Positions 5,744-23,333 of a stretch of 64,000 nucleotides of DNA are shown here, piece by piece. How positions within the stretch are numbered: position 1 is the stretch's first letter; each line of letters begins with the position of its first letter. The notes beneath the pieces were generated by a model. It was not told the DNA's origin, ran no database searches, and saw nothing but the letters and a program-made list of their open reading frames with translations. Made by a program: the position numbers and the translations under genes. This DNA comes from Candidatus Poribacteria bacterium (GTDB lineage: Bacteria; Poribacteria; WGA-4E; WGA-3G): assembly GCA_965205015.1 (NCBI GenBank), contig OZ242029.1, positions 4,128,001 through 4,192,000 on the forward strand, in the 5' to 3' direction.

Positions 5744-6958
5744 TTAAGTTGCCTCACCCACGGAAAGAACTTCGATTATCCTTCCAAACGGCTTATCCGG
5801 AAACAGGGACGCAAGTTTCTGTGTATACGTCAGCGGTGTGAGTTCTAAAATCTCGCCATCTATATCCACCCTGTAACGCCGATGCACATCTGCCCCCGCT
5901 TTGAGAAGTGCTTTGACGATTTCCAAGCACTCGTCAAGGGCTTCTACGGCTTCTCTTATCCCATACCACGTGCCTATCGCCACGAGGAGCGGAGACATCT
6001 CGTATTCAACAGGACGAAATATGATCCGATTGCCACAGACAAACTCCTGTTCAATCAGTTGCGGATTGGAACCGACATACCGTCTGACCCTCTCCAGATC
6101 GCCCATAATAATCGCAGCCCCTAAATCCGGCACTGCCCCGTTTTCAATCAGTAAGTTATAGAAAGGCATTCGCGGCTCGGCTTCAAAAGCGGAGTGATGC
6201 CACGGTTTCACCAGTAAGTCCATTGGGGCGTTGCCTTCAGCCTGTCCTGCCGTGGCCAACGATGGATCCGCTTCAATCAGGAGTGTGGCGATCTCTATCC
6301 GATCGCACCCTGCGGCAATTCCGAGCAGGCTTATGCCGTTCCACGTCCTTGATCTGTCAAAACGTTGTTTAAGCACCTCTGGGTTGTTACGGATAGCTGT
6401 CTCAACGTATTCACGGTCGTCCATAAGAACCGCCGCAACGAGATTCGTTGCCGCCCTGTGTTCCCTGAAGAGGTCATAGAGTTGCCGTATCGGTCTGAAC
6501 CATCGCGCTTTACCGAAATTGATCAGTCCTCTTGAGGCGAGTGCTTCGAGAGGGGTTCGTCCTTCCTCATCTCTCACAGAAACGAGCGACGGGTCGGTAG
6601 TCAGCAGTTCCTCTACGCGCTGCATATCGGTTTGTGTCAGATCAGGAGCCCGGAGTATTTGGAACAGGAGGTCTTTGGTGAGTATTCCCTCCGCGACTTG
6701 TTCTTGATGCAGCACCGCTTCCTTCAACCGCGTCCAACTTGCGAATCCGTATTCACGGGCAATCACAAATTGCGCGTCTTGCAAACCGAATGTTGTCTGC
6801 TGGATTTCTGTATCTGTGGCATCGGAGAGTTTTGGAAAGAACGTGCGAATCCGTTGAAACGCGTCAAGAGAACTTTCCTTACGCGCCTTCAGCAGCTGTT
6901 TCGCTTGCGACTTCAGATGTTCAAGGTTCGGATTGGAGGGCAGTTGTTTATATTGCAT
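5744..6958 (-). CDS. Ankyrin-repeat protein with N-terminal LPxxPNLEHLKxQAKxLL domain
   Basis: N-terminal LPSNPNLEHLKSQAKQLL...AQFVIAREYGFASWTRLK motif; ankyrin-like segments GRTPLEALA, SPLLVAI, LLKAGADVH; RBS GAGGAG. Confidence 0.75.
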   Translation of the reverse strand: MQYKQLPSNPNLEHLKSQAKQLLKARKESSLDAFQRIRTFFPKLSDATDTEIQQTTFGLQDAQFVIAREYGFASWTRLKEAVLHQEQVAEGILTKDLLFQILRAPDLTQTDMQRVEELLTTDPSLVSVRDEEGRTPLEALASRGLINFGKARWFRPIRQLYDLFREHRAATNLVAAVLMDDREYVETAIRNNPEVLKQRFDRSRTWNGISLLGIAAGCDRIEIATLLIEADPSLATAGQAEGNAPMDLLVKPWHHSAFEAEPRMPFYNLLIENGAVPDLGAAIIMGDLERVRRYVGSNPQLIEQEFVCGNRIIFRPVEYEMSPLLVAIGTWYGIREAVEALDECLEIVKALLKAGADVHRRYRVDIDGEILELTPLTYTQKLASLFPDKPFGRIIEVLSVGEAT

Positions 6959-7209: not shown

Positions 7210-7798
7210 TTTGGGACACCTTCCGGTCAAATCTACGGATCCATTGGGGCTGACCCACTTCAGAAGAAAACGGGAAGGTGAATACCAAAGCTTTACATAT
7301 CTTGCGCGAGTCCTTACGTTAATTCTTGATAATAGTTTATGGATGACGTATAATTAACATCATATTCTTGAAATTTTGCCCTTTATCAGTAAAACGAATG
7401 AAGAATCGAGATATGAACACCATAGTTAGAACAGCGCGAATACTTGATAGTAATCCTTGCCTGCGGGGCTCGTTGGTCCTTTCAGAAACCATCTGGATCC
7501 CCGATTTAACAAGCCTGATCGCCCCCCCCCCCCGCTTTACAAACGATAAGCGTTTAGCCCCACAATATTCACCGATTCTACCAATATTCCGTCCCCGTGC
7601 CCGCGCGCCATTTCACCCGATGGCATCCAGCGCGGGTTGTTTTTGTTGTCGTAGTTTCAGCAACACATATCCAACGAATGCCTTACGCACAATCGCATCT
7701 TTCCCTCTTGCAGTCGCAATGATTTATGAACCCCCTCAGTTAAACGAAACCCTCAACTTTTGAATCATAGCAGCAAAACGTTCAGAATCAGGTTAACT

Positions 7799-10700
7799 AT
7801 GTCAAATCTTAAATCCAGCATCCGAGACAATCATAAGAGGGGAAGCGTTGGCGACTTCCTTAAATCCAAAATTGAAGATGGATCCTCCCTCTCAATTGTT
7901 TCCGCGTACTTCACGATCCACGCCTTTCAAACACTCAAAGAATCGCTCACAAAAATCAAAGAGCTCCGGTTTCTGTATGGTGAACCTCGCTTTATAAAAA
8001 GCCTCAACTCCGAAAATACCGACAAGAAAGCCTTCAAAATTGAGGGCGAAACCGAAGGCTTGAAATTCGAGGATCGCTTAAAACAGAATTGGATTGCCAA
8101 AGAGTGTGCCGCATGGATTCGAGAAAAAGTACAGATTCAATCCATTCAAAAATCTAATCTGATGCATGCGAAAATGTATCACATCGCTAAGGATGGTGTA
8201 GAAGATGCCATTGTCGGAAGTTCCAATTTTACCGTGCGCGGCCTTGGAATGAGTGCAACAGACAATAACATTGAACTGAATCTTGAAGTAGACAGCAACC
8301 GAGATCGCAGTGACGTGAAGGTGTGGTTTGATGATATCTGGGAGGACAAAGAACTCGTCAAGGATGTCAAAGACGAGGTGCTGCTATACCTTGAGCAACT
8401 CTATCAGAACAACACCCCAGAGTTTATCTATTATAAAACGTTATATCACATCTTTGAACGGTTTTTAGGCGAACAAGAAAAAAGTGGACTCCTCGCTGAG
8501 GATGTGCAACTCGTCGATACGATTGTCTGGAACACTCTATTTGAATTCCAGAAGGATGCCGTGAAAGGCGCGATAAACAAAATTCGGCAACACAACGGGT
8601 GTATCATTGCGGATAGTGTCGGTTTAGGCAAAACCTTCGAGGCACTTGCTATCATCAAATACTTTGAACTCCTGAACAACAGAGTCCTCGTGCTATGCCC
8701 CAAGAAGTTGCGGGACAACTGGACAGATTACCGTGCAGACAATAACAGCGAGCTGAATCTGTTCTGCAAGGACCGCTTTCGATACACAGTCCTCTCCCAT
8801 ACCGATCTGAGTCGTGATGGTGGAAAGTCAGGCGATATTAACCTTGAAACCATCAATTGGGGCAACTACGATTTGGTTGTTATTGATGAATCGCACAATT
8901 TCCGTAACAATACACCCGGTAAGAGAGATGAGGACGGCAATTTGATCCGCAAAAGCCGGTACCAACGGCTAATGGAGGATATTATCCAGAGCGGCATCAA
9001 AACCAAAGTCCTATTGCTCTCTGCTACACCAGTGAATAACAATCTGAAGGATCTCCGCAACCAGATCTATTTTCTCACCGAAGGTCGAGACGACGCTTTC
9101 CAAAAGTCGCTTGGCATTGATAGCCTGCAAAGAACCCTGGCAGATGCCCAGCGCACTTTTACCGACTGGTCAAAGCAACAGGACGACCGCCAGACACGTG
9201 ACCTACTGGAACGGCTCAGTTCCACCTTTTTCAAACTGCTTGACGAGTTGACGATCGCCCGTTCTCGAAAACACATTGAGAAATACTATCCAGACTCACT
9301 GAAAGAGCTTGGTGGGTTCCCGGAGCGCAACAAGCCAATTTCTGTCTACACCGATATTGATTTGCAAGGTCAGTTCATGTCTTACGACGAACTTAACGAG
9401 GAAATTTCCGAATATCAACTCTCCCTATTCAATCCCTCAAAGTATGTGCTGCCCGAGTACATTTCCCAATACGAGGACGGACAGATTGGACAATTTACGC
9501 AAAGTGACCGTGAACACTACTTGATCGGTATGATGAAGGTCAATTTTCTCAAACGCTTGGAAAGTTCCGTTCACGCCTTTGGAATTACGATGGGACGGAC
9601 GATCGAAAAAATCGAGCAACTGGAAAAACGGATTAAACGATTCCAAGAGTTTCGCGAGGAAAATCCTGATATGGATTTGGAAGATGTTGATATCGAGGCA
9701 TTTGAGGATGAAGATCTACAAGAGGCAATGCAGGTAGGCAAAAAATTAGTCTTCAAAATGGTACACCTTAATACTGAAAGGTGGTTGACAGATTTGGAAC
9801 ACGACCGCGAACAACTTGAGTTGCCTTATCTCTATGCAAAGGATGTTACCGATGATCGCGATGCCAAACTCGCCAAACTCAAGCAACTCATCGCCGAAAA
9901 GGTTAAACAACCCACAAGAAATAAAAAAGGAAGACCGAATCGCAAGGTTCTGGTATTTACTGCCTTCGCAGATACAGCCAAATATCTCTACGATGCATTG
10001 GAACAATGGGCACCTGAAGAACTCGGTGTCCATATCGGAATGGTATCGGGAGGTACAAGCGGTAATAAGACAACCTTCGGCAGGACTGAATTCAGCAATA
10101 TCTTAACGAATTTTTCACCGAATTCCAAAAAACGTCACCTGATGAAAACCATGCCACAGGACGAGGAGATAGACCTGCTCATCGGCACGGATTGTATCTC
10201 GGAAGGACAAAACCTGCAGGACTGTGATTATCTCATTAACTACGACATTCATTGGAATCCAGTGCGTATCATTCAACGGTTTGGACGTATTGACCGCATC
10301 GGTAACAACAATGACAGCGTCCAGCTCGTCAACTTCTGGCCCACACCCGACCTCAACCGTTACATCAAACTAAAAAATCGGGTCGAAGCACGGATGGCAC
10401 TCGTAGACATTGCCGCAACGCAGGGGGATAATCTGTTAGAACCGGAAGGAATTCAGGAACTCCTTGAGGATGACCTCAAATACCGTGATCAGCAGCTGCT
10501 AAAACTGAAGGACGAAGTCTTAGACCTTGAGGATTTCAATGAGAGTGTCGCCCTCAACGAATTCACGCTTGATGACTTCCGTATTGACTTGATGAACTAT
10601 ATTGAGAGTAACCGGAAAACGCTTGAAGACGCACCTTTCGGACTCTATACCGTTGTGCCACCGGATCCCAAGTACCAGATGATGACCAAAGGGGTTATCT

Positions 10701-11092
10701 TCTGTCTGCGACAAAAAGGCGATTCCACAGGAAATGAGAAGATAAATCCGTTACAGCCCTATTTCTTGGTCTACATTCGCGAGGATGGCGAGGTGCGGTT
10801 TACTTTTGCACAACCTAAACAGATCTTGGAGATGTACCGCTTGTTGTGTGCAGATGTGAAAAAACCGTATGAAGACCTGTGTACCTTGTTTGACCAGCAA
10901 ACCGGCAACGGCACGGACATGACCCTCTACAATGACCTGCTGCAGAAAGCAGTTCATTCACTCAGTCGCACCTATCAGAGACGAGCCGTCAGTAATCTCT
11001 TAGTGGGTCGTGGCGGCACGCTACCTAAACGACAAAAGCAGATTAGCAATGTGACTGACTTTGAACTCATTACATGGTTGGTGATTCAATGA
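7799..11092 (+). CDS. PLD-family nuclease domain fused to SNF2-like superfamily 2 helicase
   Basis: HAKMY...GSSNFT PLD motif; DSVGLGKT (Walker A), IDESHNFRN (Walker B), LLSATP, SEGQNLQ, QRFGRIDRIG. ATG 7799 preferred over TTG 7760. Confidence 0.85.
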   Translation: MSNLKSSIRDNHKRGSVGDFLKSKIEDGSSLSIVSAYFTIHAFQTLKESLTKIKELRFLYGEPRFIKSLNSENTDKKAFKIEGETEGLKFEDRLKQNWIAKECAAWIREKVQIQSIQKSNLMHAKMYHIAKDGVEDAIVGSSNFTVRGLGMSATDNNIELNLEVDSNRDRSDVKVWFDDIWEDKELVKDVKDEVLLYLEQLYQNNTPEFIYYKTLYHIFERFLGEQEKSGLLAEDVQLVDTIVWNTLFEFQKDAVKGAINKIRQHNGCIIADSVGLGKTFEALAIIKYFELLNNRVLVLCPKKLRDNWTDYRADNNSELNLFCKDRFRYTVLSHTDLSRDGGKSGDINLETINWGNYDLVVIDESHNFRNNTPGKRDEDGNLIRKSRYQRLMEDIIQSGIKTKVLLLSATPVNNNLKDLRNQIYFLTEGRDDAFQKSLGIDSLQRTLADAQRTFTDWSKQQDDRQTRDLLERLSSTFFKLLDELTIARSRKHIEKYYPDSLKELGGFPERNKPISVYTDIDLQGQFMSYDELNEEISEYQLSLFNPSKYVLPEYISQYEDGQIGQFTQSDREHYLIGMMKVNFLKRLESSVHAFGITMGRTIEKIEQLEKRIKRFQEFREENPDMDLEDVDIEAFEDEDLQEAMQVGKKLVFKMVHLNTERWLTDLEHDREQLELPYLYAKDVTDDRDAKLAKLKQLIAEKVKQPTRNKKGRPNRKVLVFTAFADTAKYLYDALEQWAPEELGVHIGMVSGGTSGNKTTFGRTEFSNILTNFSPNSKKRHLMKTMPQDEEIDLLIGTDCISEGQNLQDCDYLINYDIHWNPVRIIQRFGRIDRIGNNNDSVQLVNFWPTPDLNRYIKLKNRVEARMALVDIAATQGDNLLEPEGIQELLEDDLKYRDQQLLKLKDEVLDLEDFNESVALNEFTLDDFRIDLMNYIESNRKTLEDAPFGLYTVVPPDPKYQMMTKGVIFCLRQKGDSTGNEKINPLQPYFLVYIREDGEVRFTFAQPKQILEMYRLLCADVKKPYEDLCTLFDQQTGNGTDMTLYNDLLQKAVHSLSRTYQRRAVSNLLVGRGGTLPKRQKQISNVTDFELITWLVIQ

Positions 11093-14000
11093 ACGAACTG
11101 CAAACAAGAAAAAACATTGAGCAGGCACTGAAAGATTTTCAACGCGGAGCGCTGGCAATGAACGCCAACAACCTGCTTAACGCACTCGGTTACGAAAGTG
11201 AAATAACAGTAGAGCTTGAATCTAATCTCGCTGAGGAGTTCATCTCGTATTTCGACCAGTTTGGAAAACTAAACCCGGAACGGGCAATGGTAGATGAATG
11301 GGAGTCTATTGATTTTCTGTTTCAACTCACAGAAGAAGAAATCTCCGGAACAGGTCAGACGCGAATCGTTTTTAAAAACAGGCAGCTTGACAACACGGTT
11401 ATTGAATCATATGTTTTCTTCGCGCTAAAGTTACGGGAAAACAATTACACTCGCACACAGTTGGCCAACATTACCCGCGAAATCAATAGACTGACACCGA
11501 TGCCTGCAATGATTGTTTTCCAGCACGGTCAGACTGTGAGTCTCGCTGTCATCAATCGCCGCCTGCACAAGCGAGATGCAGCGAAGGACGTGCTTGAAAA
11601 GGTAACCCTGATTAAAGATATCGATTCCCACGATCCCCATCCCGCTCACATTCAAATTCTCTTTGACCTGTCACGAGATGAGCTGTTTAGGGTCCACGGC
11701 TTCAGCAACTTTGTTGAACTGCATCGTGCCTGGGCAAAAACACTTGATATCCAGGAGTTGAACAAACGATTCTATCGCGAACTCTCCAATTGGTACTTCT
11801 GGGCAATGGATAATGTAACTTTCCCAGAGGACGCAGGCGAAAATGTAGATATCCGCAACGCCACCAGTGTGATTCGCTTGGTTACACGGTTAATCTTTGT
11901 CTGGTTCATCAAGGAGAAAAAATTAGTCCCCGACATCTTCTTTAATCCGAGAGAGATAGAGAAAATCCTTGTCAGCACCGACCCACAGGAAAGTACTTAT
12001 TACAAAGCTATCCTCCAAAACCTTTTCTTCGCGACCCTCAATCAGGAGATGAACACCCCTAAAAAACCCGATAACCGTAAATTTCGCGGTAAGGGACGAC
12101 AGCACTACAATATCACGTCACTCTATCGCTATGAAACGTATTTCACGAATTCAGATGAGGCACTGCGACACTTTGAAAAAATCCCGTTCTTGAATGGTGG
12201 TCTCTTTGAATGCTTGGATAAAGAGAACAAGGACAATCCCAAGAAAATTCTACGGATTGATGGCTTTTCCGATCGGGCAGATAACCAGTTATCCGTTCCC
12301 AATTTCCTGTTCTTTTCCGAGGAAAGGAATGTTGACCTCAACAGCGTCTACGACACAAAAGGCAAGCGGTATAAGGTCCGTGGACTCATTGACATCCTCC
12401 GCCGCTACAAATTTACGATTACAGAAAACACTCCTATTGAAGAAGAAGTCGCGCTTGACCCGGAACTGCTCGGGAAGGTTTTTGAAAACCTGCTTGCGGC
12501 ATACAACCCCGAAACCGGTGCAACCGCACGGAAGCAGACCGGCTCCTTCTACACCCCTCGCGAAATCGTCAACTATATGGTTGACGAATCACTCATCGCT
12601 TACTTGAAAGAAAGTAGCAGGCACACTCCGTTGTGCCGTAGCATTGATACTGATGCGGCAACAGAAACCAAACTCCGCCACCTTCTCGCTTACAACGACG
12701 AACCCCATCAATTCACCGATACCGAAATCGAGCAGCTCATCAACGCCATTGATACCCTCAAAATACTGGACCCTGCCTGCGGATCGGGTGCTTTCCCGAT
12801 GGGCATTTTACATAAACTCGTTTTCATCCTCGGAAAGCTTGACCCACGTAACGACCAGTGGAGACAACGACAAATTGCCAAAGTCGAACACCTCATTGAT
12901 ATGGCAGAAGAAATTGACGACAGCACGGTTCGGCGAAACACCATCCGCGACCTCGAACAGGAAAAAGACAATATCAATGAGACATTTGAGCGGAACGAAC
13001 TCGACTACGGCAGAAAACTCTACCTCATAGAGAACTGCATCTACGGTGTGGATATCCAACCGATTGCGGTCCAGATCGCCAAACTCCGATTCTTCATTTC
13101 GCTCGTCGTAGACCAAAGAATTGACGATGCCCAAGAGAATAGAGGCGTGCGTCCTCTGCCCAATTTAGAAACCAAGTTTGTCGCGGGAAACACACTCATC
13201 GGTGTAGAGAAACCGACACAACTGTTAATGCGCAATCCAGAAATTGATCGCAAGGAAAGAGAATTGGGCGGGGTCCGAAGGAAACATTTCACCGCCCGCA
13301 CCCCAAGAACCAAAGAGAAATACCGCAACCTTGATAAGCAAATCCGTGCCGACATCAGTCAATTGCTCAGGAGCGACGGTTTCCCCAGCGAAACGACTGA
13401 AAAAATTGCTAACTGGGATCCTTATGACCAAAATGCAGTCGCCGATTTCTTTGATGCCGAGTGGATGTTCGGTATCACGGAGGGTTTTGATGTGGTGATT
13501 GGCAATCCACCTTACGTCCGTCAAGAGAAGATTAAAGCACTCAAACCTGCTTTCAAAAAACACTACACCTGTTACACGGGTGCTGCAGACCTCTACGTCT
13601 ATTTCTATGAGCGCGGACTCCAACTGCTGAGTCCAAACGGTATCCATACGTTTATCTGTTCCAACAGTTGGCTGGATGTCAACTACGGCGCGCCGCTACA
13701 GAAGTATGTATTAGACAACACCGCGGGGGCGGTTGTCTGTCACAGTGAAGCAGAACGTGAGTTTGAGAGTGCCGACATCAACACCATCGTGAGTATTCTC
13801 CAAAATGGGACTCCCAATGCGGATTCTCGTGCTCGTTTTCTCACCTTCAAGACTTTCATCGGCGATCCAGATGTAGAGAATCGCCGTGAAGGAACACGCA
13901 CCTATACCGAGTTAGCACAAGCCGGCACCCGCGATAACAGATATGCAGGAGACAAATGGGGCGGGAAGTATCTACGCGCCCCTGACATCTATTGGACGAT

Positions 14001-14817
14001 TTTAGAGAAAGGAAAAGATAAACTGGTGCGTCTGGGGGACATCGCGGAGGTGAGACGAGGCTTCACAACGGGTGCCAATGAGTTCTTTTATCTTGACGAT
14101 GAAAGGATTCAGGCATGGGACCTTGCGGATGAATTTCTGAAGCCTGTCATCAAGAGTCCACGGGAATGCAAAAGCATCCGTGTAGATCCCAACCAGTTGC
14201 AGTTCAAGTTATTTATGTGCCATGCAGATAAATCCGAATTAGCAGGGACTGCGGCGTTGGAATACATTGAATGGGGTGAGTCGCAGGGGTATCATCGGAG
14301 ACCGAGTTGTCGAGGTCGCACACGCTGGTGGGATTTGGGGCAATGGGAATACCCTGATATGTTATGGTCGGATGCCTACAATGTTCGATTTGGATGTTTT
14401 GAAAACGCTGGTGATTATTTTGCAGATAAACGGTTTTTCGTTATAGAATTCAAGGAGAACAATTTGGCAACGCGCGCCTACTTAAACAGCACTATCATTC
14501 CGTTGTTAATTGAAACCGAAGGTATCTCTAATTTGGGTGAAGGCGTTATTTATACCAACGTTTACTGGTTAAAAACACTTCCGATATTGACAGAAAACCG
14601 TATAACGAAAGAGATTCACCAATGCTATGAAAACATAAAAACGCGCGAGATCCTTCCTATCTTTGATGAAATCCATCAACCTGATCGTCGCGCCCTTGAC
14701 ACAATCATTTTCGATGCCCTTGACCTCACACAAGGTGAACGGGATGGTGTGTATGAAGCGGTTGTGAATCTGGTAGAATCGCGCCTGCGGAAGGCGAGGA
14801 GTTTGAAGGGTAAATAG
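11089..14817 (+). CDS. Eco57I/TaqI-like (type IIG-like) N6-adenine DNA methyltransferase
   Basis: FLNGGLF, GSFYTPREIV, LDPACGSGAF, GVDIQ, VIGNPPY; ATGA overlap with the helicase stop at 11089-11092. Confidence 0.85.
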   Translation: MNELQTRKNIEQALKDFQRGALAMNANNLLNALGYESEITVELESNLAEEFISYFDQFGKLNPERAMVDEWESIDFLFQLTEEEISGTGQTRIVFKNRQLDNTVIESYVFFALKLRENNYTRTQLANITREINRLTPMPAMIVFQHGQTVSLAVINRRLHKRDAAKDVLEKVTLIKDIDSHDPHPAHIQILFDLSRDELFRVHGFSNFVELHRAWAKTLDIQELNKRFYRELSNWYFWAMDNVTFPEDAGENVDIRNATSVIRLVTRLIFVWFIKEKKLVPDIFFNPREIEKILVSTDPQESTYYKAILQNLFFATLNQEMNTPKKPDNRKFRGKGRQHYNITSLYRYETYFTNSDEALRHFEKIPFLNGGLFECLDKENKDNPKKILRIDGFSDRADNQLSVPNFLFFSEERNVDLNSVYDTKGKRYKVRGLIDILRRYKFTITENTPIEEEVALDPELLGKVFENLLAAYNPETGATARKQTGSFYTPREIVNYMVDESLIAYLKESSRHTPLCRSIDTDAATETKLRHLLAYNDEPHQFTDTEIEQLINAIDTLKILDPACGSGAFPMGILHKLVFILGKLDPRNDQWRQRQIAKVEHLIDMAEEIDDSTVRRNTIRDLEQEKDNINETFERNELDYGRKLYLIENCIYGVDIQPIAVQIAKLRFFISLVVDQRIDDAQENRGVRPLPNLETKFVAGNTLIGVEKPTQLLMRNPEIDRKERELGGVRRKHFTARTPRTKEKYRNLDKQIRADISQLLRSDGFPSETTEKIANWDPYDQNAVADFFDAEWMFGITEGFDVVIGNPPYVRQEKIKALKPAFKKHYTCYTGAADLYVYFYERGLQLLSPNGIHTFICSNSWLDVNYGAPLQKYVLDNTAGAVVCHSEAEREFESADINTIVSILQNGTPNADSRARFLTFKTFIGDPDVENRREGTRTYTELAQAGTRDNRYAGDKWGGKYLRAPDIYWTILEKGKDKLVRLGDIAEVRRGFTTGANEFFYLDDERIQAWDLADEFLKPVIKSPRECKSIRVDPNQLQFKLFMCHADKSELAGTAALEYIEWGESQGYHRRPSCRGRTRWWDLGQWEYPDMLWSDAYNVRFGCFENAGDYFADKRFFVIEFKENNLATRAYLNSTIIPLLIETEGISNLGEGVIYTNVYWLKTLPILTENRITKEIHQCYENIKTREILPIFDEIHQPDRRALDTIIFDALDLTQGERDGVYEAVVNLVESRLRKARSLKGK

Positions 14818-14936: not shown

Positions 14937-15121
14937 GAGGTATGAAAATTAGGAAAATTAGGTGAGTGTCAGATTCCAAATTTGGTTGATATCTGTCGGC
15001 TATATGTGCTATTCTTAAGTATGGTAATCTGCATTGTTGAGAAAGCAGCGCACAAACCGTCTGAATCGCTGATTATACGGAGTTTTCCGATCCATATTAG
15101 CCTTGAATAGGGATGTAATGA

Positions 15122-18100
15122 ATGCCAAAATATGATGTTGCGTTGTCGTTCGCTGGACAAGATCGACAGCACGCCAAAGCCTTAGCAGATCTTCTTAAAA
15201 CGGGCGGATATACATTCTTTTATGATGAGAATGAGCGCGCGCACCTTTGGGGCAAAGATCTCTATGTTCACCTATCGTCGATTTACAAAAATCAGGCGCG
15301 CTATTGTATTATGTTTTTGTCTGAACACTATGCCCGGAACTTGTGGACCAACCATGAGCGCGAGAGTGCTCAGGCGAGGGCATTTCAGGAAAATCGCGAG
15401 TATATTCTCCCAGTTCGTATTGATGATACAGAAATACCGGGTATTCTCCCGACGGTTGGATATCTTGATTTACGTTCAATGACTATTGCAGAAGTCTATG
15501 AAGCCTTAGTAAAAAAGTTATCAAGTACTGCATCACGAAAAACACCATCCGATAACAACAATGCTCCTCATCCTGAGAGGGAGAAAGAAAAATCCTTTAA
15601 TCATGAACGCGATCAAAATGTAAACGCTGAAGATTCTAAAACATCTTTAGGTCAAAAAGGTGTGAGCGAAAAGGGATCTCATGAAAAGGCAAGCAACAGG
15701 CCACTAAAAGGATTCATTACATACTCACACGAGAATACTATACAAAAAGACGAATTACGCAAACGTTTTGCCGTAATGAAGCAGAATAATGAGCTAATAA
15801 CATGGGATGACGGTCAACTTACACCTGGAGATGGAGCACTTCAGGAAGACATTCTCGAAAAGATTGCTGATTCGGACCTACTACTCTACCTTGTTTCTGC
15901 CGCGAGTCTTGACTCTAAAAACTGTAACAGGGAATTAGCAGAGGCGTTGAAGCGAGAGATTAGAGTTATCCCGATTATCCTTGAGCATTGCGATTGGCTG
16001 CATCATCAACTTAGCGGTTTTGAAGTTCTTCCACACAAAGGGAAGCCGCTTAGCGGTTGGGACGATCAGAGCGAAGGCTGGCAAAATGTGGTGGATGGCG
16101 TTCGAAAAGCACTTAACAAGATGGGGGGGGGATCCGAGACACCCGAGAAAGAGTTACGCGCTGAATTAGCGTTCCAACGTGGGAATACTATCATGATACT
16201 CGGACAACTGGATATGGCAATAGAGGCGTACTCTGATGCTATCAATCTCAATCCGCGTAACGCGAGTGCCTATTGCAATCGCGGTGTTGCTTACATGGAA
16301 AAAGGCGAACTTGATCGCGCTATTAAGGACTATAACATAGCGATAAAATTGGGTTTCAAGCATGCTTTAGTCCATACCAATCGCGGGGTCGCTTATGGGA
16401 AAAAAGAGGAACATGATCTTGCTATAAAAGATTATAACAAAGCCATAGAACTCAATTCCGGTTTTGCCCATGCCTATTACAACCGGGGTGTCGCTTATAG
16501 TGATATAGGCGAATTGGATCTTGCTATTCAAGACTATACTAAAGCAATAGAACGTAAACACGATTATATTCAAGCCTACACCGGCCGAGGTCTTGTCTAC
16601 AGCGAAAAAAATGATTTTGACTTAGCAATTGCGGACTATACTCAGGCAATAGAACTCAATCAACACTATGCAGCTGCCTACAACAACCGCGGACTCGCTT
16701 ACGTTAGTACGGGTGAGTTGGATCTTGCTATTCAAGACTATACTAAAGCAATAGAACTCAATCCAAAGTTTGCCGGAACCTATTATAATCGCGGTGTTGC
16801 TTATGGACAGAAAAATGAAATTGATAAAAGTATCGTTGATTATACCAAGACAGTAGAACTGGATTCTAATTATGTGGATGCCTACTACTGTCTCGGCAAT
16901 GCCTATGTTGATAAAGACAAATTTATCGCAGCCATCACACACTATAGTAAAGTGATAGAATTGGATCCAGATTATGTTGAGGCCTATTATAATCGAGGTT
17001 GGACGCATAGCAAAAATGCCAATCATGATCTTGCTATTGCAGATTGTGACATGGTAATAGAATTAGAACCGAGTCGTGCGGGAGCATATAACATGCGCGG
17101 TGTTTCCAACTACAGTAAAGGCAATTCCGCGAATGCAATTAAAGACTTTAGCAAAGCAATAGAATTAGAGCCAGATTATGTTGATGCCTATAATAACCGC
17201 GGCAACGTTTACCTCAAAAGCAGACAAGTTGTTCTTGCGCTTAAAGACTTTAACAAGGCAATAGAACTTAATCCCAAGTATAGAGATGCCTATAATGGTC
17301 TCGCTGAAGTTCATAGCGTTAGAGATGAGTTTGACCAGGCTATTGCCAACTATAACAAGGCACTAAAATTGGATCCTAATTATGCCGTGGCCTATTGCAA
17401 TCGAGGCAATGTCTATAATGACAAAGGCGAGGTAGACAAGGCAATTGCGGATTATAACAGGGCGATTGCCCTAGACTCGAAAAATGCCGAAACCTATTAT
17501 AGTAGAGGCAATACGTACCTCAATAAAGGTGAGTTTGATCTCGCTATCACAGATTATAATAAAGCAATAGAACTCAACCTAGACAAGGCTGAAGTCTACT
17601 TATACCGCGGCGTGGCTCGGATGTGCTTGCGAAATTGGCAAGATGCCAAAGCCGATCTGATTGTTGCCCGGGACAAAGAGTTGGATATCACCGATGCGTT
17701 TCATAAAGACATCAAAAGTATTGAAGCCCTTGAGCGAATAGTCGGTACTCCATTGCCCACAGATATTGCTTTACTGTTAACGCACCAAGTACTTGAACCT
17801 AATAATGCTGAAACCTATATCATCCGTGGCATTGCTTACGCTAAAAATGGCGAGTATGATCTTGCCGTTGCTGATTTTAGCAAGGCAATAGAACTAGAAC
17901 CAGAGACGCTTATTGCCTATGGGCATCGCGGCGTAGCTTACTACAACGAAGGCAAGTTTCACCAAGCGGTCACTGACTTTAATAGAACAATAAGCCTTAC
18001 ACCTGAAGACCCATTTGCCTATTATGTTCGCGGGATGGCTTACCGTAACCTGTTGGTTTTTGAGAAAGCCATCCAAGACTTTAGCACAGCGGCAATACGT

Positions 18101-19027
18101 CTCAAACCCGATGCGGCTGCCAATGCCTATACGGAACGCGGTGTAACCTACCACCTTAAGGGGGACGTGGATAAGGCAATTGAAGACTATAACACTGCAA
18201 TAGCGTTGGATCCAAAGTTCCCAAAGGCTTATACGGAACGTGGAAAGACTTACCGCGATAAAGGCGAGGTAGACAAGGCGATTGCGGATTACGACAGAGC
18301 CATAGAACTTAATCCAGAGTTTGCTGAGCCTTATACCTGCCGCGGCTCCATCTACAAGGAACGAGGCGAGATAGACAAGGCGATTGAAGATCACAGGAAA
18401 GCCATAGAATTGAATCCAGAATTTGCTGAAGCATACCTCAATCGGGGACAGGCTTACTACGCCAAGAACGAATTGGACAAGGCGATTGCGGATTATGACA
18501 AAGCCATAGAGCTTGATCCAAAACTTGTGGAGGCATACACGCATCGGGGCAACGCATATCGCGACAAAGCCGAGTTAGACAGTGCAATTACGGATTATAC
18601 GAAGGCACTAAAACTCAGACCAAAAGTTGCCGAATCCTATTATACACGGGGTGAAGCGTGGTTGCTTGCGAAAAGGTGGGAAGAAGCAAAGACCGACCTG
18701 ACAGCTGCGCTCTTACAAGACGTAGATGTTGCCGCTGTGTTTCACAATACCTATGAAAGCACTGCTGCCTTTGAACAAAAAATAGGGGTTCGTTTACCGA
18801 AAGAGATTGTTGAGTTGCTGACCCCACCGAGCGGGTCCCCGTTTGAAATTGGGAGAGACGCGCGGATCGCGTTAGGAATGAAGTACTACGGGAGCGGTGA
18901 ACTTAGCAGTGGTCTTGCCTCGAAACTCGCAGGGGTCCCGCGCGAAGAATTCTGGCGTCTGATGGGGGATTATGGGCTCTCTCCTTTGTATGTTGATGAG
19001 GAGGAGCTTGTCAATAGCGGATTTTAA
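15122..19027 (+). CDS. TIR-TIR-TPR array protein with C-terminal UPF0175-like domain
   Basis: TIR1 YDVALSFAG...WTNHE; TIR2 GFITYSH...CNRE; roughly 24 TPRs (AYYNRG...AIxDYxKAIELNP); tail ARIALGMKYYGSGELSSGLASKLAGVPREEFWRLMGDYG. Confidence 0.85.
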   Translation: MPKYDVALSFAGQDRQHAKALADLLKTGGYTFFYDENERAHLWGKDLYVHLSSIYKNQARYCIMFLSEHYARNLWTNHERESAQARAFQENREYILPVRIDDTEIPGILPTVGYLDLRSMTIAEVYEALVKKLSSTASRKTPSDNNNAPHPEREKEKSFNHERDQNVNAEDSKTSLGQKGVSEKGSHEKASNRPLKGFITYSHENTIQKDELRKRFAVMKQNNELITWDDGQLTPGDGALQEDILEKIADSDLLLYLVSAASLDSKNCNRELAEALKREIRVIPIILEHCDWLHHQLSGFEVLPHKGKPLSGWDDQSEGWQNVVDGVRKALNKMGGGSETPEKELRAELAFQRGNTIMILGQLDMAIEAYSDAINLNPRNASAYCNRGVAYMEKGELDRAIKDYNIAIKLGFKHALVHTNRGVAYGKKEEHDLAIKDYNKAIELNSGFAHAYYNRGVAYSDIGELDLAIQDYTKAIERKHDYIQAYTGRGLVYSEKNDFDLAIADYTQAIELNQHYAAAYNNRGLAYVSTGELDLAIQDYTKAIELNPKFAGTYYNRGVAYGQKNEIDKSIVDYTKTVELDSNYVDAYYCLGNAYVDKDKFIAAITHYSKVIELDPDYVEAYYNRGWTHSKNANHDLAIADCDMVIELEPSRAGAYNMRGVSNYSKGNSANAIKDFSKAIELEPDYVDAYNNRGNVYLKSRQVVLALKDFNKAIELNPKYRDAYNGLAEVHSVRDEFDQAIANYNKALKLDPNYAVAYCNRGNVYNDKGEVDKAIADYNRAIALDSKNAETYYSRGNTYLNKGEFDLAITDYNKAIELNLDKAEVYLYRGVARMCLRNWQDAKADLIVARDKELDITDAFHKDIKSIEALERIVGTPLPTDIALLLTHQVLEPNNAETYIIRGIAYAKNGEYDLAVADFSKAIELEPETLIAYGHRGVAYYNEGKFHQAVTDFNRTISLTPEDPFAYYVRGMAYRNLLVFEKAIQDFSTAAIRLKPDAAANAYTERGVTYHLKGDVDKAIEDYNTAIALDPKFPKAYTERGKTYRDKGEVDKAIADYDRAIELNPEFAEPYTCRGSIYKERGEIDKAIEDHRKAIELNPEFAEAYLNRGQAYYAKNELDKAIADYDKAIELDPKLVEAYTHRGNAYRDKAELDSAITDYTKALKLRPKVAESYYTRGEAWLLAKRWEEAKTDLTAALLQDVDVAAVFHNTYESTAAFEQKIGVRLPKEIVELLTPPSGSPFEIGRDARIALGMKYYGSGELSSGLASKLAGVPREEFWRLMGDYGLSPLYVDEEELVNSGF

Positions 19028-19029
19028 GG

Positions 19030-19521
19030 ATGCCAATACAGCCAGTTATTAGCAATAACAGTCCGCTTGTTGGACTCTTCGGGCTCAACCTTCTTTCTCT
19101 ATTGCGTGATCTTTATACAGAGGTGTGGATTCCACGAAAAGTTGAAAAGGAGTTTCTCAAAAAAGATCCGATAGTTCGTCGGGAAGCCCTCGAAAATGCG
19201 CCTTGGATTAAAACCGTCGATTTAACGGATCCGCAAACCGCTGCGGTTTATGTGGCACTTGATGACGGTGAAGCCGAAACCTTGGCTCTTGCGAATGAAC
19301 ATGATGCACGTCTCGTTCTTCTTGATGAAAAGGTGGGAAGACAGACTGCCGAAGAAGTTGGATTAACGGTTAAGGGGACAGTCGGCATTTTGTTGGAAGC
19401 AAAGGAAAAAGGCTTGATTGATGTTATCAAGCCGCTTTTAATTCGGTTGCAGGATAACGGAATGCACCTGAGCGAATCACTCATCCATAACGCCCTGCAA
19501 AGGGCAGGTGAGACAGATTAA
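19030..19521 (+). CDS. DUF3368-family PIN-domain protein (putative toxin/RNase)
   Basis: VISNNSPL, IPRKVEKE, LDDGEAETLALA, VLLDEKVGR, VKGTVGILLEAKEKGLI. Confidence 0.85.
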   Translation: MPIQPVISNNSPLVGLFGLNLLSLLRDLYTEVWIPRKVEKEFLKKDPIVRREALENAPWIKTVDLTDPQTAAVYVALDDGEAETLALANEHDARLVLLDEKVGRQTAEEVGLTVKGTVGILLEAKEKGLIDVIKPLLIRLQDNGMHLSESLIHNALQRAGETD

Positions 19522-22565: not shown

Positions 22566-23333
22566 ATGAAAAAAGCATTATTAATTCTCGGTGTGGTGTG
22601 TTTCAGTCTCATCACTGTTCACATCAGCACCGCTGAGATTGACTTTGAGACAGCAGTCGGCATCTGGCTCTTTGATGAAGGCAAAGGCGGTGAAGCTAAA
22701 GACATATCCGGTGAAGACAACCATGGCGAAGTCGTCAAAGCCCCATGGGTGGATGGAAAATTCGGCAAAGCCCTCGAATTTGATGGAAAATCCGGCTGTG
22801 TCAAGACGGGAGCGAAACTTCTTGAAGCTCTCGAAGAGTTCACTATTCTTGCATGGATACAAAGCACGGACGCTCCACCCGCTCGGACGGGACTCGTCGG
22901 ACAGAACAACGCACCGGAGTTCGGCTTTATTACGACGAATGAGCTGAGCCTCTGGACCCCCTCAGCTGGCCTGACGAATAATCCTTGGAAACACAAACAC
23001 GGTAATGGTGAATGGCATCACGTCGGGTGTGTCGCGACGCAGGAATACGTCCATACCTATATTGATGGTGAATATGCTGAGAAGAAGGGGAAGTGGGCGA
23101 ATCACGGCGCAGCTCCGTTTGACGTTAACATCGGTGGATGCGGTGTCTGGGATCCAGGCGGAAACTTTTTCCCAGGTCTCATGGACGAAGTCATGATTTT
23201 CCATTCAGCTTTGGAACAAGCAGATATTCAGGAGCTAATGGAAAAAGGTTACGTAAATTATTTGGCTGTTGACCCCAAAGACAAGCTCGGTACAACGTGG
23301 GGGCATCTTAAGGCAACGAACCATTTTAGGTAA
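22566..23333 (+). CDS. Secreted LamG-like jellyroll protein
   Basis: Signal peptide; GIWLFDEG, GKFGKALEFDG, WHHVG, GLMDEVMIF; C-terminal LAVDPKDKLGTTWGHLK; RBS AGGAGG. Confidence 0.85.
   Translation: MKKALLILGVVCFSLITVHISTAEIDFETAVGIWLFDEGKGGEAKDISGEDNHGEVVKAPWVDGKFGKALEFDGKSGCVKTGAKLLEALEEFTILAWIQSTDAPPARTGLVGQNNAPEFGFITTNELSLWTPSAGLTNNPWKHKHGNGEWHHVGCVATQEYVHTYIDGEYAEKKGKWANHGAAPFDVNIGGCGVWDPGGNFFPGLMDEVMIFHSALEQADIQELMEKGYVNYLAVDPKDKLGTTWGHLKATNHFR

What the first reader, a model, noticed from the sequence alone, without database searches (positions are those of the whole stretch)
15122..19521. TIR-TIR-TPR sensor fused to a UPF0175 antitoxin-like domain and coupled to a DUF3368 PIN toxin: candidate undescribed defence system
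Seen: a 1301-aa protein carries two dissimilar TIR domains, both retaining a candidate catalytic Glu (WTNHE, CNRE), then about 24 TPRs, then a final 60 aa or so (about 18840-19027) resembling UPF0175. A DUF3368 PIN gene starts 2 nt after its stop. Known: UPF0175 is normally a small stand-alone protein paired with DUF3368; bacterial TIRs are often NADases or signal makers; TPRs sense phage proteins in several defence systems. Inference: the antitoxin is tethered to a large sensor, so ligand binding or cleavage could release a PIN RNase while also activating the TIRs. It sits directly behind an RM-like operon.
Basis: partly seen in the sequence, partly recalled or inferred. Interest (0 to 1): 0.85.

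Follow-up and report, generated by a model that had tools for sequence, protein, structure and literature searches.

The report
TPR-tethered antitoxin with PIN partner
A sponge-symbiont (Poribacteria-like) genome encodes a giant TIR-TIR-TPR protein whose last 75 residues are an antitoxin-type domain predicted to cap the PIN nuclease gene that follows it, and this is one member of a lineage-wide, modular family that looks like an undescribed variant of a toxin-antitoxin-based defence system.

Summary
ORF 15122-19027 (1301 aa) carries two TIR domains, 21-22 detectable TPRs and a C-terminal UPF0175 domain scoring above Pfam's cut-off. A DUF3368/COG2405 PIN gene (PADLOC PDC-S70) starts 2 nt after its stop.

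The fusion is neither unique nor an artefact. A genome scan found 59 related loci, 57 titled Poribacteria, each with a TPR-cap-UPF0175 protein of 207-1346 aa. Forty have an intact PIN gene starting from 26 nt inside the ORF's end to 11 nt after its stop (one exception). Contigs from three samples in two studies carry the window's in-frame junction.

The conserved core is TPR-UPF0175 plus PIN. The TIR-TIR head is one of several swappable N-terminal heads (TIR, FRG, DUF2971), fused or encoded just upstream in 17 of 60 loci. Papers class all three as NAD+-using domains. The locus lies at a syntenic, variable site behind an HKD-SNF2/type IIG RM-like operon.

A complex prediction puts the tail over the PIN cleft (0.71 against a best control of 0.25).

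My reading: a tethered-antitoxin, TA-like defence module, a new variant of a known kind. Sensing, TIR activation and PIN toxicity are inferred. The PIN family has Asn where VapC-type PINs carry their first catalytic Asp.

The parts
14986..15015 (+). Weak sigma-70-like promoter match in the 305-nt gap upstream of the big gene
   Evidence: 9 of 12 hexamer positions with a TG extension. This is a consensus match only, not evidence of function.
15122..19027 (+). 1301-aa gene: TIR - linker - TIR - TPR array 1 - cap - TPR array 2 - cap - UPF0175
   Evidence: The N-terminus agrees with the starts of the stand-alone relatives P0157 and P0158. No DNA-level tandem repeats were found. Contigs from two studies cover it.
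15128..15520 (+). TIR domain 1 (residues about 3-133), candidate catalytic Glu79 in WTNHE (codon 15356-15358)
   Evidence: Pfam TIR_2/TIR. PADLOC PDC-S66 over residues 3-98. phmmer alignment to AbTIR chains, WTNYE against WTNHE. The Glu is kept in P0156-P0159.
15521..15712 (+). Low-complexity, charged linker between the two TIRs (residues about 134-197)
   Evidence: Read from the translation. No family match covers it.
15713..16132 (+). TIR domain 2 (residues 198-337), ThsB-like, candidate catalytic Glu271 in CNRE (codon 15932-15934)
   Evidence: PADLOC ThsB1 at E 7.4e-25 over residues 198-337. Pfam ThsB_TIR. Alignment to Cat1 9mud. The same head type occurs in P0003, L065, L005, L008, L017 and L054.
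16160..17587 (+). TPR array 1 (residues about 347-822, about 14 repeats), the divergent distal array
   Evidence: Only 60-62% identical to the equivalent arrays of L007, L029, L020 and L012.
17588..17782 (+). First helical end cap after a TPR array (residues 823-887, ...W..A.ADL...F......LP.DIALLLT); 'cap' is my own label
   Evidence: Internal duplicate of the second cap. Stand-alone TIR-TIR-TPR proteins P0156-P0159 end 3-4 residues after this motif.
17783..17806 (+). In-frame junction (T)HQVLEPNN joining cap 1 to TPR array 2
   Evidence: The same junction is present in L002, L003, L007, L020 and L029. It is spanned without gaps by contigs of runs X1, X3 and X4.
17807..18622 (+). TPR array 2 (residues 896-1167, 8 repeats), the conserved proximal array
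   Evidence: Residues 891-1301 are 84% identical to the C-termini of L002 and L003 and 82% identical to the 421-aa short form L001.
18623..18796 (+). Second end cap (residues 1168-1225)
   Evidence: Alignments A1 and A3. Profile positions 1-70 of A1 match the C-termini of many TPR proteins.
18797..19024 (+). UPF0175 (COG2886) antitoxin-type domain (residues 1226-1301)
   Evidence: Pfam PF03683 at 46.3 bits against a cut-off of 27.9. Weak PADLOC PDC-S70 model PDLC05076 match. 34% identical to a stand-alone 99-aa UPF0175 of a related genome. Predicted interface residues with the PIN are 1259-1296.
19030..19521 (+). COG2405/DUF3368 PIN-domain protein (163 aa), the putative toxin or effector
   Evidence: Pfam, and PADLOC PDC-S70 over the full length. 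AF2 model with pLDDT 88.6; Foldseek hits to VapC4 5h4g, 1y82, 2mdt and VapC 3tnd. Invariant N9, E41, E81, D99 in 40 sequences.
7760..14817 (+). Context: HKD/PLD-SNF2 helicase (7760-11092) and Eco57I/type IIG-like methyltransferase (11074-14817), directly upstream on the same strand
   Evidence: Pfam. PADLOC C3a139 'HKD+Snf2' at E 1.5e-127 and REase_MTase_IIG at E 2.8e-73. Syntenic in related loci.

Best explanation
This is a real two-gene operon of a Poribacteria-type sponge symbiont. It is a tethered-antitoxin variant of the UPF0175/COG2405-PIN toxin-antitoxin-like module (PADLOC candidate PDC-S70).

Shown by the calls: the antitoxin-type UPF0175 domain is the C-terminal 75 residues of a large TPR protein. 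The PIN gene follows within 2 nt. The same arrangement recurs across the lineage.

Predicted: the tail sits over the PIN's putative active-site cleft, so the large protein holds the PIN latent in a 1:1 tether.

Inferred:
- The TPR superhelix is the input module. The proximal 8-repeat array is conserved and the distal array is divergent.
- Binding of an invader-derived protein or peptide, or loss or damage of the large protein, frees the PIN to act on nucleic acid.
- In head-bearing members such as this one, the N-terminal NAD+-using head (here two TIR domains with retained candidate catalytic Glu79 and Glu271) is brought into an active assembly. The output would then be NAD+ consumption or signalling plus PIN activity, which is abortive-infection-type defence.

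The locus sits at a conserved, hypervariable site next to an RM-like operon, which fits a defence role.
For: Domains and spacing.

Recurrence. One search found 59 loci (57 titled Poribacteria, 2 'uncultured bacterium'). Searches give 40 of 59 with an intact PIN gene, 12 with remnants or an internal stop, and 7 with none. Among the 40 plus the window, the PIN starts 2-3 nt after the stop in 27, 11 nt after in 1, and overlaps by 23-26 nt in 12; one odd case reads -116. In three related genomes, 4 of 5 DUF3368 PINs sit next to a long-frame UPF0175 and 1 next to a small one. In 150 genomes of that phylum, 133 have UPF0175, and 64 of the 150 listed matches (365 in all) lie in open frames of 200 aa or more.

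Not an artefact. The internal junction is shared with 5 other loci and the C-terminal half is 84% identical to orthologues. There are no DNA tandem repeats. Contigs of X1 and X3 (0 differences) and of X4 from another study (17 differences, no gaps, 15833-18085) span the junction.

Binding. Complex prediction gave 0.71 against a best of 3 controls of 0.25. That mark was reached by 58 of 80 solved complexes and 2 of 110 mismatched pairs; these counts hold only roughly because my own alignments were used. The runs agree in at least 87% of contacts and the partner's pLDDT is at least 87. The interface covers PIN residues 10-11, 41, 76-78, 81, 99-104 and 115-119, that is the conserved cleft. No UPF0175 or COG2405 chain was found in the PDB by sequence. 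VapBC complexes are solved, so some memory effect is possible.

PIN fold.

Head swapping. TIR heads in the window, L009, P0003, L065 and P0013. FRG in L003 and L044. DUF2971 in P0004 and P0005. The same heads occur as separate upstream same-strand genes in 13 loci. The base rate is only 3-5 TIR_2 and 4-5 FRG matches per 5.5-5.9 Mb genome. Passages of PMC9503650 place Frg in the ART superfamily as a possible NADase effector. PMC12522546 predicts DUF2971 to be ART-like.

Defence setting. The RM-like neighbours are syntenic in 8 related loci while the heads differ. Passages of bioRxiv 10.1101/2024.09.26.614923 report that one PDC-S70 representative lowered plating of T7, T4 and T5 by 100- to 1000-fold in E. 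coli.

Loss of the PIN with the antitoxin-bearing gene retained (19 of 59 loci) is the usual decay pattern of toxic partners; that this pattern is usual is my own knowledge.
Against: - Nothing here is experimental, and the organism is uncultured.
- All 40 aligned PINs, and a canonical Poribacteria PIN, have Asn where VapC-type PINs carry the first catalytic Asp. PMC5499597 lists only 2-5 active-site residues for COG2405. Nuclease activity is therefore uncertain.
- 43 of 60 loci show no head in the ORF or upstream, so TIR output is not part of the core.
- 19 of 59 loci keep the TPR-UPF0175 gene without an intact PIN. L063 and L064 also lack one. This could mean the large protein has a PIN-independent role.
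- The TIR-TIR plus UPF0175 combination was seen only in this window and in near-identical contigs of runs. The stand-alone TIR-TIR-TPR relatives P0156-P0159 lack the tail.
- Variation at the TPR helix-A positions is only modest evidence of ligand sensing (140 repeats passed the filter).
- The complex score is the model's own confidence and may borrow from solved VapBC-type complexes.
- TPR proteins are in any case abundant in sponge symbionts.
Confidence: 0.55

Rival explanations
1. A plain addiction or gene-integrity module with no sensing. Because the antitoxin domain is the last 75 residues of a long, recombination-prone gene, any frameshift, nonsense mutation or deletion in that gene removes the antitoxin and unleashes the PIN. 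The pair would then simply enforce retention of the intact TPR gene and the neighbouring island. The TIR heads would have an unrelated function.
For: Antitoxin-last architecture with tight coupling to the PIN. The family is vertically retained at one syntenic site. UPF0175/COG2405 is classed as a predicted TA pair in PMC2701414 and PMC5499597. No NTPase or other switch domain is present.
Against: Many loci carry truncated or split upstream TPR genes yet keep a short TPR-UPF0175 ORF with its own start, so integrity of the long form is not enforced. The swapping of NAD+-using heads and the RM-like neighbourhood are typical of immune systems. One PDC-S70 member was reported as antiphage.
Confidence: 0.2
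2. The PIN is not a toxin here but a non-catalytic or specialised partner. The UPF0175-PIN contact would serve as an assembly or adaptor interface, for example PIN dimers bringing two TPR-TIR proteins together, or the TPR scaffold aiming the PIN at a particular RNA or protein complex. The heads would be the real effectors.
For: Asn replaces the first catalytic Asp in all 40 PINs, while other cleft residues and much of the surface are highly conserved. The predicted interface is large, at 89-93 contacts. TIR enzymes generally need oligomerisation (my own knowledge).
Against: E41, E81 and D99 are invariant and line the predicted interface. The Asn is a family-wide trait that is also present in a canonical small pair, and a member of that family was reported active against phages. 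PIN genes decay in 12 of 59 loci and are absent in 7, which suggests a cost. Most loci have no head to assemble.
Confidence: 0.12
3. A 'eukaryote-like' TPR/TIR protein used by the symbiont to interact with its sponge host, for example by interfering with host TIR signalling. The UPF0175/PIN part would be an incidental or decaying TA remnant.
For: The lineage is sponge- or coral-associated by record titles and run labels. It encodes very many TIR-TPR proteins: 317 hits at E <= 0.001 to the head region. Ankyrin and other repeat proteins lie nearby.
Against: The protein starts directly with the TIR fold, with no N-terminal extension or signal-like segment. I ran no signal-peptide predictor. The tail and the PIN are strongly conserved and tightly coupled. 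FRG and DUF2971 heads and RM-like neighbours point to intracellular conflict systems.
Confidence: 0.08
4. Artefact: the 1301-aa frame arises from a misassembly across TPR repeats, or from a recent loss of a stop codon between a TIR-TIR-TPR gene and a short TPR-UPF0175 gene.
For: Stand-alone TIR-TIR-TPR proteins (P0156-P0159, 716-894 aa) end just where the junction lies. Split versions exist in L001, L008 and L054. Repeat genes are prone to assembly errors.
Against: The junction peptide is shared with five other loci. Gap-free contigs span it in three samples from two studies. There are no DNA tandem repeats in the gene. Long fused frames are common in the phylum.
Confidence: 0.03

Closest known systems
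UPF0175 (COG2886) / DUF3368 (COG2405) PIN pair, listed in PADLOC as candidate PDC-S70
   Same: The same two families in the same order, with the genes tightly coupled. Both score above Pfam's cut-offs, and the PIN matches PDC-S70 models over its full length. UPF0175 is reported to occur only with COG2405.
   Different: The canonical antitoxin is a stand-alone protein of about 75-100 aa, for example the 99-aa one in L062. Here it is the C-terminal domain of a 207-1346 aa TPR protein, with TIR, FRG or DUF2971 heads in some members. The fused-type PINs are only 35% identical to a canonical PIN of the same lineage.
VapBC-type type II toxin-antitoxin systems
   Same: PIN-fold partner (Foldseek hits to VapC4 5h4g and VapC 3tnd). 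The antitoxin is encoded first. The antitoxin C-terminal region is predicted to lie over the PIN cleft.
   Different: No sequence-level relation to VapB. The first catalytic Asp is Asn. The antitoxin is not a small labile protein. DNA binding and autoregulation were not tested.
CapRel(SJ46)-type fused toxin-antitoxin phage sensors (recalled, not from a call)
   Same: The idea that an antitoxin element physically tethered to a larger protein doubles as, or is controlled by, a sensor of a phage protein.
   Different: In CapRel the toxin and antitoxin are parts of one polypeptide and the toxin is a RelA/SpoT-type enzyme. Here the toxin is a separate PIN gene and the tether is to a TPR array.
Avs / bacterial NLR-like STAND proteins with TIR heads and TPR sensors (recalled)
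   Same: An N-terminal swappable effector head (TIR among others) followed by a long TPR array that would serve as the sensor. Head swapping between relatives.
   Different: There is no central STAND NTPase; the sequence is fully accounted for by TIR, linker, TIR, TPR, caps and UPF0175. There is an extra antitoxin tail and a PIN partner.
Bacterial TIR NADases and signal makers (AbTIR, Thoeris ThsB, Cat1, SpbK)
   Same: Both TIRs match TIR_2. TIR2 matches ThsB models. The candidate catalytic Glu residues align with AbTIR and Cat1.
   Different: Two unlike TIRs in tandem on a TPR scaffold. A ThsA-type partner was not looked for. Activity is unknown.
PrrC anticodon nuclease held latent by the EcoprrI restriction enzyme (recalled)
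   Same: A latent RNase masked by a large defence-associated protein and sitting beside a restriction-modification locus. This is a guard-type logic.
   Different: Unrelated protein families. Here the masking domain is a UPF0175 tail, and a link to the neighbouring RM-like genes is only positional.

Membership tests
UPF0175 / COG2886 antitoxin family (PF03683) | Match to the family HMM above the curated cut-off | tested here: met
   46.3 bits against a cut-off of 27.9, E 3.3e-12, residues 1226-1296. Relatives P0003-P0005 score 41-58 bits.
UPF0175 / COG2886 antitoxin family (PF03683) | Small stand-alone protein | tested here: not met
   The domain is the C-terminus of a 1301-aa protein. Stand-alone forms of 77-99 aa exist in related genomes.
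UPF0175 / COG2886 antitoxin family (PF03683) | Encoded directly upstream of a COG2405 PIN gene | tested here: met
   2-nt spacing. 40 of 59 related loci have an intact PIN in the same position.
UPF0175 / COG2886 antitoxin family (PF03683) | Binds and neutralises the toxin; HTH DNA binding and autoregulation | not testable with these tools
   There is only a prediction. Score 0.71 against a best control of 0.25; the mark was reached by 58 of 80 solved and 2 of 110 mismatched pairs, roughly, because my own alignments were used; at least 87% contact agreement; partner pLDDT at least 87. The HTH is a published prediction.
COG2405 / DUF3368 PIN (PADLOC PDC-S70) | Family HMM matches | tested here: met
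   PF11848 at 58.7 bits against 27.3. PDLC05071 at E 9.7e-44 over residues 6-161.
COG2405 / DUF3368 PIN (PADLOC PDC-S70) | PIN fold | tested here: met
   AF2 model with pLDDT 88.6 and pTM 0.85. Foldseek: VapC4 5h4g_B at E 2.5e-4 and TMq 0.64, plus 1y82, 1v96 and 2mdt.
COG2405 / DUF3368 PIN (PADLOC PDC-S70) | Full set of acidic catalytic residues of VapC-type PINs | tested here: inconclusive
   E41, E81 and D99 are invariant, but the first motif reads S-N-N/T-S in all 40 sequences. It is also Asn in a canonical pair. The literature lists 2-5 residues for this family.
COG2405 / DUF3368 PIN (PADLOC PDC-S70) | Toxicity or antiphage activity | not testable with these tools
   One unrelated representative was reported as protective (passages only). 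Its supplementary domain table could not be seen.
TIR-domain NADases / signal makers | TIR fold matches for both domains | tested here: met
   TIR_2 at E 2.5e-30 in 2 stretches, and ThsB_TIR. PADLOC ThsB1 and PDC-S66.
TIR-domain NADases / signal makers | Conserved Glu at the catalytic position | tested here: met
   E79 aligns with the Glu of WTNYE in AbTIR chains. E271 aligns with the Glu of CWDE in Cat1. Both are kept in P0156-P0159. The identity of those residues as catalytic is recalled.
TIR-domain NADases / signal makers | NAD+ cleavage or signal production | not testable with these tools
Thoeris | ThsA (SIR2/SLOG or equivalent) effector gene beside the ThsB TIR | not tested
   The nearest neighbours scanned showed no such family, but the whole window was not scanned for ThsA.
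Avs / STAND NLR-like defence proteins | Central STAND/P-loop NTPase between head and TPRs | tested here: not met
   Residues 1-1301 are filled by TIR, linker, TIR, TPRs, caps and UPF0175, with no room and no match for an NTPase. One search printed 25 of 38 families.
Type II toxin-antitoxin system (general) | Two co-directional genes, antitoxin first, coupled or overlapping; proteinaceous antitoxin that contacts the toxin | tested here: met
   Spacing across 41 loci: 2-3 nt in 27, 11 nt in 1, overlaps of 23-26 nt in 12, one outlier. The contact itself is only predicted.

The most novel reading that the evidence does not exclude
A lineage-wide, NTPase-free immune architecture. A TPR sensor with interchangeable NAD+-consuming heads (TIR, Frg-type ART, DUF2971-type ART) keeps a PIN nuclease latent through a C-terminal UPF0175 'plug'. 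One recognition event would then fire two effectors at once, NAD+ depletion or signalling and nucleic-acid cleavage. The fused and split gene versions would record how such guards are assembled from TA parts.
Probability: 0.25. Interest if true: 0.8.

Novelty: new variant of a known kind. Interest (0 to 1): 0.62.

Why it matters
If the reading is right, it would show a way of wiring a toxin-antitoxin pair into immunity that has not been described in the papers I could search. The antitoxin would no longer be a labile free protein. It would be a plug on a large repeat sensor, optionally combined with a second, NAD+-based effector.

That would link three active themes: TA systems as phage defence, TIR/ART NAD+ enzymes, and TPR sensors. 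It would do so without a STAND NTPase.

It would also give a function to part of the very large TPR/TIR gene complement of sponge symbionts, which is usually read as host-interaction machinery.

The family offers natural fused, split and headless versions, which makes the hypothesis easy to test in E. coli. If the rival 'addiction only' reading is right, the finding is a modest curiosity of TA domain architecture.

Tried and rejected
No whole genome is held for the window, so both 'own' searches failed.

Sequence search of the PDB with the PIN found nothing at E <= 1. With the tail profile it found only weak TPR-like hits. No solved UPF0175 or COG2405 complex could therefore be named, although PMC5499597 cites 2mdt for COG2405, and Foldseek later ranked 2mdt 13th.

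The last protein search with the PIN returned only close relatives of 72-94% identity. It gave no distant sequences for the active-site question, so I used a canonical pair from a related genome.

Tandem Repeats Finder found no DNA repeats in the gene. The viral-contig scan with the tail alignment found no relative, which leaves mobility unaddressed. The promoter and terminator scan gave only weak consensus matches.

The TPR position-entropy analysis used only the 140 repeats that matched my home-made HMM end to end, 10 of them from the window. Positions 12 and 13 were the most variable, followed by 2, 9, 19, 22, 17 and 5. That helix-A positions 2, 5, 9, 12 and 13 form the ligand face is recalled. 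I treat this as weak support.

In one search some bins of X4 (2 of 30) and X5 (10 of 30) had no cover, and the many short 'joints' have sides under 35 letters at 90% likeness. These most likely come from other TPR genes of the community, and I draw nothing from them. X5 is an RNA library, but its contigs cannot show transcription.

I considered and rejected misassembly or a lost stop, and membership in Avs/STAND (no NTPase). I did not fold the TIR-TIR head or the C-terminal half, because the outputs (pLDDT, secondary structure) would not have tested the mechanism.

PMC7159879 was searched for FRG, DUF2971 and TPR-S and holds none of them. The PADLOC source preprint 10.1101/2024.01.29.577857 was seen only in a search listing. 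The domain table of the tested PDC-S70 construct (Supplementary Data 4 of 10.1101/2024.09.26.614923) may say whether a UPF0175 gene was included.

Full report
**1. What is there.**
The window holds a 1301-aa ORF at 15122-19027 (+) and a 163-aa ORF at 19030-19521 (+). They are separated by the stop TAA and two bases.

Pfam finds two TIR_2 stretches, 21-22 TPRs and a UPF0175 (PF03683) match over residues 1226-1296, at 46.3 bits against a cut-off of 27.9. The small protein matches DUF3368 (PF11848) at 58.7 bits against 27.3. PADLOC adds three things:
- ThsB-like for TIR2 (residues 198-337);
- PDC-S66 for TIR1;
- full-length PDC-S70 for the small protein (E 9.7e-44), with a weak PDC-S70 model hit on the tail.

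TIR1's WTNHE aligns with WTNYE of AbTIR chains, and TIR2's CNRE aligns with CWDE of Cat1. That these are the catalytic Glu residues is recalled. The protein has no room for any other domain. Its order is TIR1, a charged linker, TIR2, about 14 TPRs, a helical end cap, 8 TPRs, a second copy of the cap, then UPF0175.

**2. Organism and site.**
Flanking genes are 80-97% identical at protein level to genes of loci whose record titles read Candidatus Poribacteria. The order is type IIG-like methyltransferase, then the TPR-UPF0175 gene, PIN, GNAT (opposite strand), NDK, NPCBM, LamG. It is kept in L001, L002, L003, L005, L009, L011, L012 and L036. What lies at the 5' end of the TPR gene differs from locus to locus.

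Upstream in the window are an HKD/PLD-SNF2 helicase and an Eco57I/type IIG-like methyltransferase.

**3. The fusion is a family trait.**
- A word-limited protein search with the C-terminal 137 residues found three long proteins among 548 candidates: TIR-TPR-UPF0175 (P0003) and DUF2971-TPR-UPF0175 (P0004, P0005).
- A scan of one genome per species with a tail alignment gave 59 loci, 57 titled Poribacteria and 2 'uncultured bacterium'.
- In every locus the tail ends an ORF of 207-1346 aa with 2-30 TPRs.
- A P0002-like PIN ORF is intact in 40 of 59. It is reduced to a remnant or carries an internal stop in 12, and is absent in 7.
- In the 40 plus the window, the PIN starts 2-3 nt after the stop in 27 and 11 nt after in 1. 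It overlaps by 23-26 nt in 12, with one outlier.
- The scan patterns only reach close relatives. L065, from another genome, is a 571-aa TIR-TPR-UPF0175 protein with an overlapping PIN that the scan had missed.
- In 150 genomes of the same phylum, 133 have a UPF0175 match. Of the 150 listed matches (365 in all), 64 lie in open frames of 200 aa or more.
- In three complete genomes, 4 of 5 DUF3368 PINs sit beside a long-frame UPF0175 and 1 beside a small one.
- A profile search of 1.84 billion representatives gave 1086 hits. Only roughly the first 24 rows cover the UPF0175 half. The rest match the last TPR plus cap, mostly at the very C-terminus of other TPR proteins. Six of eight top hits that I scanned are TPR plus UPF0175, one of them with a TIR head.

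**4. Not a misassembly or a lost stop.**
- Stand-alone TIR-TIR-TPR-cap proteins (P0156-P0159, 716-894 aa, no UPF0175 in their lists) end 3-4 residues after the cap motif. The window protein therefore equals such a protein joined to a TPR8-cap-UPF0175 unit.
- The join (...LLTHQVLEPN...) is shared with L002, L003, L007, L020 and L029.
- Residues 891-1301 are 84% identical to the C-termini of L002 and L003. The distal array (367-830) is only 60-62% identical to its counterparts.
- The gene has no DNA-level tandem repeats.
- Contigs from run X1 (16728-19067, 0 differences) and X3 (another sample, 16728-18064, 0 differences) span the join without gaps. So does X4 from another study (15833-18085, 17 differences). 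X4 also covers TIR1. X1 may be the source sample.
- Contigs of an RNA library from the same sample as X4 cover 20 of 30 bins. This does not prove transcription.

**5. Heads.**
- Heads inside the ORF: TIR-TIR (window), another type of TIR (L009), FRG (L003, L044). From protein searches: TIR (P0003, P0013, L065) and DUF2971 (P0004, P0005).
- The same head types are separate same-strand genes just upstream in 13 loci:
  - DUF2971 in L012 and L020;
  - a frameshifted L009-like TIR in L029;
  - FRG or FRG-TPR genes in L001, L010, L014, L017, L027, L031 and L033;
  - TIR-TPR genes in L005, L008, L017 and L054.
- 43 of 60 loci show no head in the ORF or upstream with these queries.
- With only 3-5 TIR_2 and 4-5 FRG matches per genome, 17 of 60 is far above chance adjacency by my rough estimate of well under 1% per locus.
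- Passages of PMC9503650 place Frg in the ART superfamily as a possible NADase and antiviral effector. The abstract and passages of PMC12522546 predict DUF2971 to be a DarT/AbiGi-like ART.
- All three head types are thus NAD+-using domains. Interchange of functionally similar heads, fused or split, is the usual signature of conflict systems (my own knowledge).

**6. The PIN and its contact with the tail.**
The AF2 model (pLDDT 88.6) is a PIN fold, with Foldseek hits to VapC4 5h4g, 1y82, 1v96, 2mdt and VapC 3tnd. Across 40 sequences N9, E41, E81 and D99 are invariant. The first motif is S-N-N/T-S, so the first catalytic Asp of VapC-type PINs is replaced by Asn. A canonical small UPF0175 plus PIN pair in a related genome has the same Asn, so this is a family trait. 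It agrees with '2-5 active-site residues' for COG2405 in PMC5499597.

Complex prediction on tail residues 1227-1301 plus the PIN, each with its own alignment, gave these results:
- score 0.71, against a best of three controls of 0.25;
- that mark was reached by 58 of 80 solved complexes and 2 of 110 mismatched pairs, counts that hold only roughly because my own alignments were used;
- the runs agree in at least 87% of contacts, and the partner's pLDDT is at least 87.

The model supports binding but does not show it, and VapBC-type complexes in the PDB could lend memory. The interface on the PIN (10-11, 41, 76-78, 81, 99-104, 115-119) is the conserved cleft.

**7. What is known.**
- UPF0175/COG2886 is a predicted HTH antitoxin of PIN genes (PMC2701414 passages).
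- It is found only with COG2405 (PMC5499597 passages).
- PDC-S70 is a PIN-based candidate found by 'guilt by embedding' (PMC12988326 passages).
- One cold-seep representative was reported to cut plating of T7, T4 and T5 by 100- to 1000-fold in E. coli B (bioRxiv 10.1101/2024.09.26.614923 passages).
- Full-text searches turned up no description of a TPR-fused UPF0175 (UPF0175, DUF3368; COG and PF numbers; Poribacteria, toxin-antitoxin, TPR; antitoxin, TPR, fused, PIN, TIR, defense). The library lacks most subscription journals and all supplements.

**8. Mechanism and rivals.**
Best reading (0.55): a tethered-antitoxin, TA-like defence module.
- Shown: the architecture, its recurrence, the tight gene coupling and the defence-like site.
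- Predicted: the tail plugs the PIN cleft.
- Inferred: the TPRs sense an invader protein, the PIN is released, and in this member the two TIRs are activated.

Rivals:
- an addiction or gene-integrity module without sensing (0.2);
- a PIN that serves as an assembly or adaptor partner rather than a toxin (0.12);
- a host-directed 'eukaryote-like' protein with a TA remnant (0.08);
- artefact (0.03).

Points against my reading are listed in full in the Against line. The main ones are the missing first Asp, the many headless loci, the 19 of 59 loci without an intact PIN, and the absence of any experiment.

**9. Verdict.**
This is not a one-off oddity. It is a member of a lineage-wide family, best classed as a new variant of a known kind (UPF0175/COG2405, PDC-S70). 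The window's TIR-TIR head is so far seen only in this strain-level lineage.

Interest is moderate to high. The case is a coherent, testable architecture linking TA modules, NAD+-using effectors and TPR sensors without an NTPase.

Noticed in passing
window 7368-14817 (+): A 131-aa ORF with no family match is followed by an HKD/PLD-SNF2 helicase (1110 aa; PADLOC C3a139 'HKD+Snf2', E 1.5e-127). Next comes an overlapping 1247-aa Eco57I/type IIG-like methyltransferase. Together they form an RM- or DISARM-like three-gene block whose type I did not resolve.
   Followed up: partly
window 51-4586 (+): A very large (1511 aa) Peptidase_C25 protein with CARDB and a C-terminal FlgD_ig domain.
   Followed up: no
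window 5744-6958 (-): A 404-aa protein with weak ankyrin-repeat matches. A homologue lies upstream of the TPR-UPF0175 gene in L011.
   Followed up: no
L005 4921-6360, L017 5317-6723, L027 5382-6776, L023 9081-10550: An AAA_23/SMC_N/AAA_15-type ATPase gene recurs near the TPR-UPF0175 gene in four loci. In L005, L017 and L027 it lies between the head-TPR genes and that gene; in L023 it lies downstream. It may be a further component of some versions of the system.
   Followed up: partly
L045 and L048 (one contig, two places): Two loci about 1.6 Mb apart in one genome gave the same coordinates and scores. Their PIN sequences are identical in the alignment. This points to a recent duplication or a repeated element.
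   Followed up: partly
L063 817-1884 (+) and 2045-3202 (-): A 355-aa TPR-cap-UPF0175 gene without a PIN lies next to a 385-aa ORF. By my own reading of its sequence (no family scan), the ORF looks like a TnpB/IS200-605 OrfB-type protein.
   Followed up: no
P0001 residues 823-887 and 1168-1225; one search hits: The roughly 60-residue helical cap that follows the last TPR (W..A..DL...F....FE....LP..I..LL) ends a very large number of TPR proteins in public data. Its last segment, LP.EI..LL, is read by Pfam as the start of the UPF0175 match.
   Followed up: partly
L060 1462-2069: A small stand-alone UPF0175 gene (94 aa) is followed not by a PIN but by a 115-aa ORF. Its C-terminus looks DUF433/COG2442-like by eye; I did not scan it.
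   Followed up: no
L001, L002, L003, L009, L011 downstream of NDK: The LamG/Laminin_G_3 gene at window 22566-23333 is present as two tandem paralogues (about 90% and about 72-77% identity) in five related loci. I did not check whether the window has a second copy.
   Followed up: no
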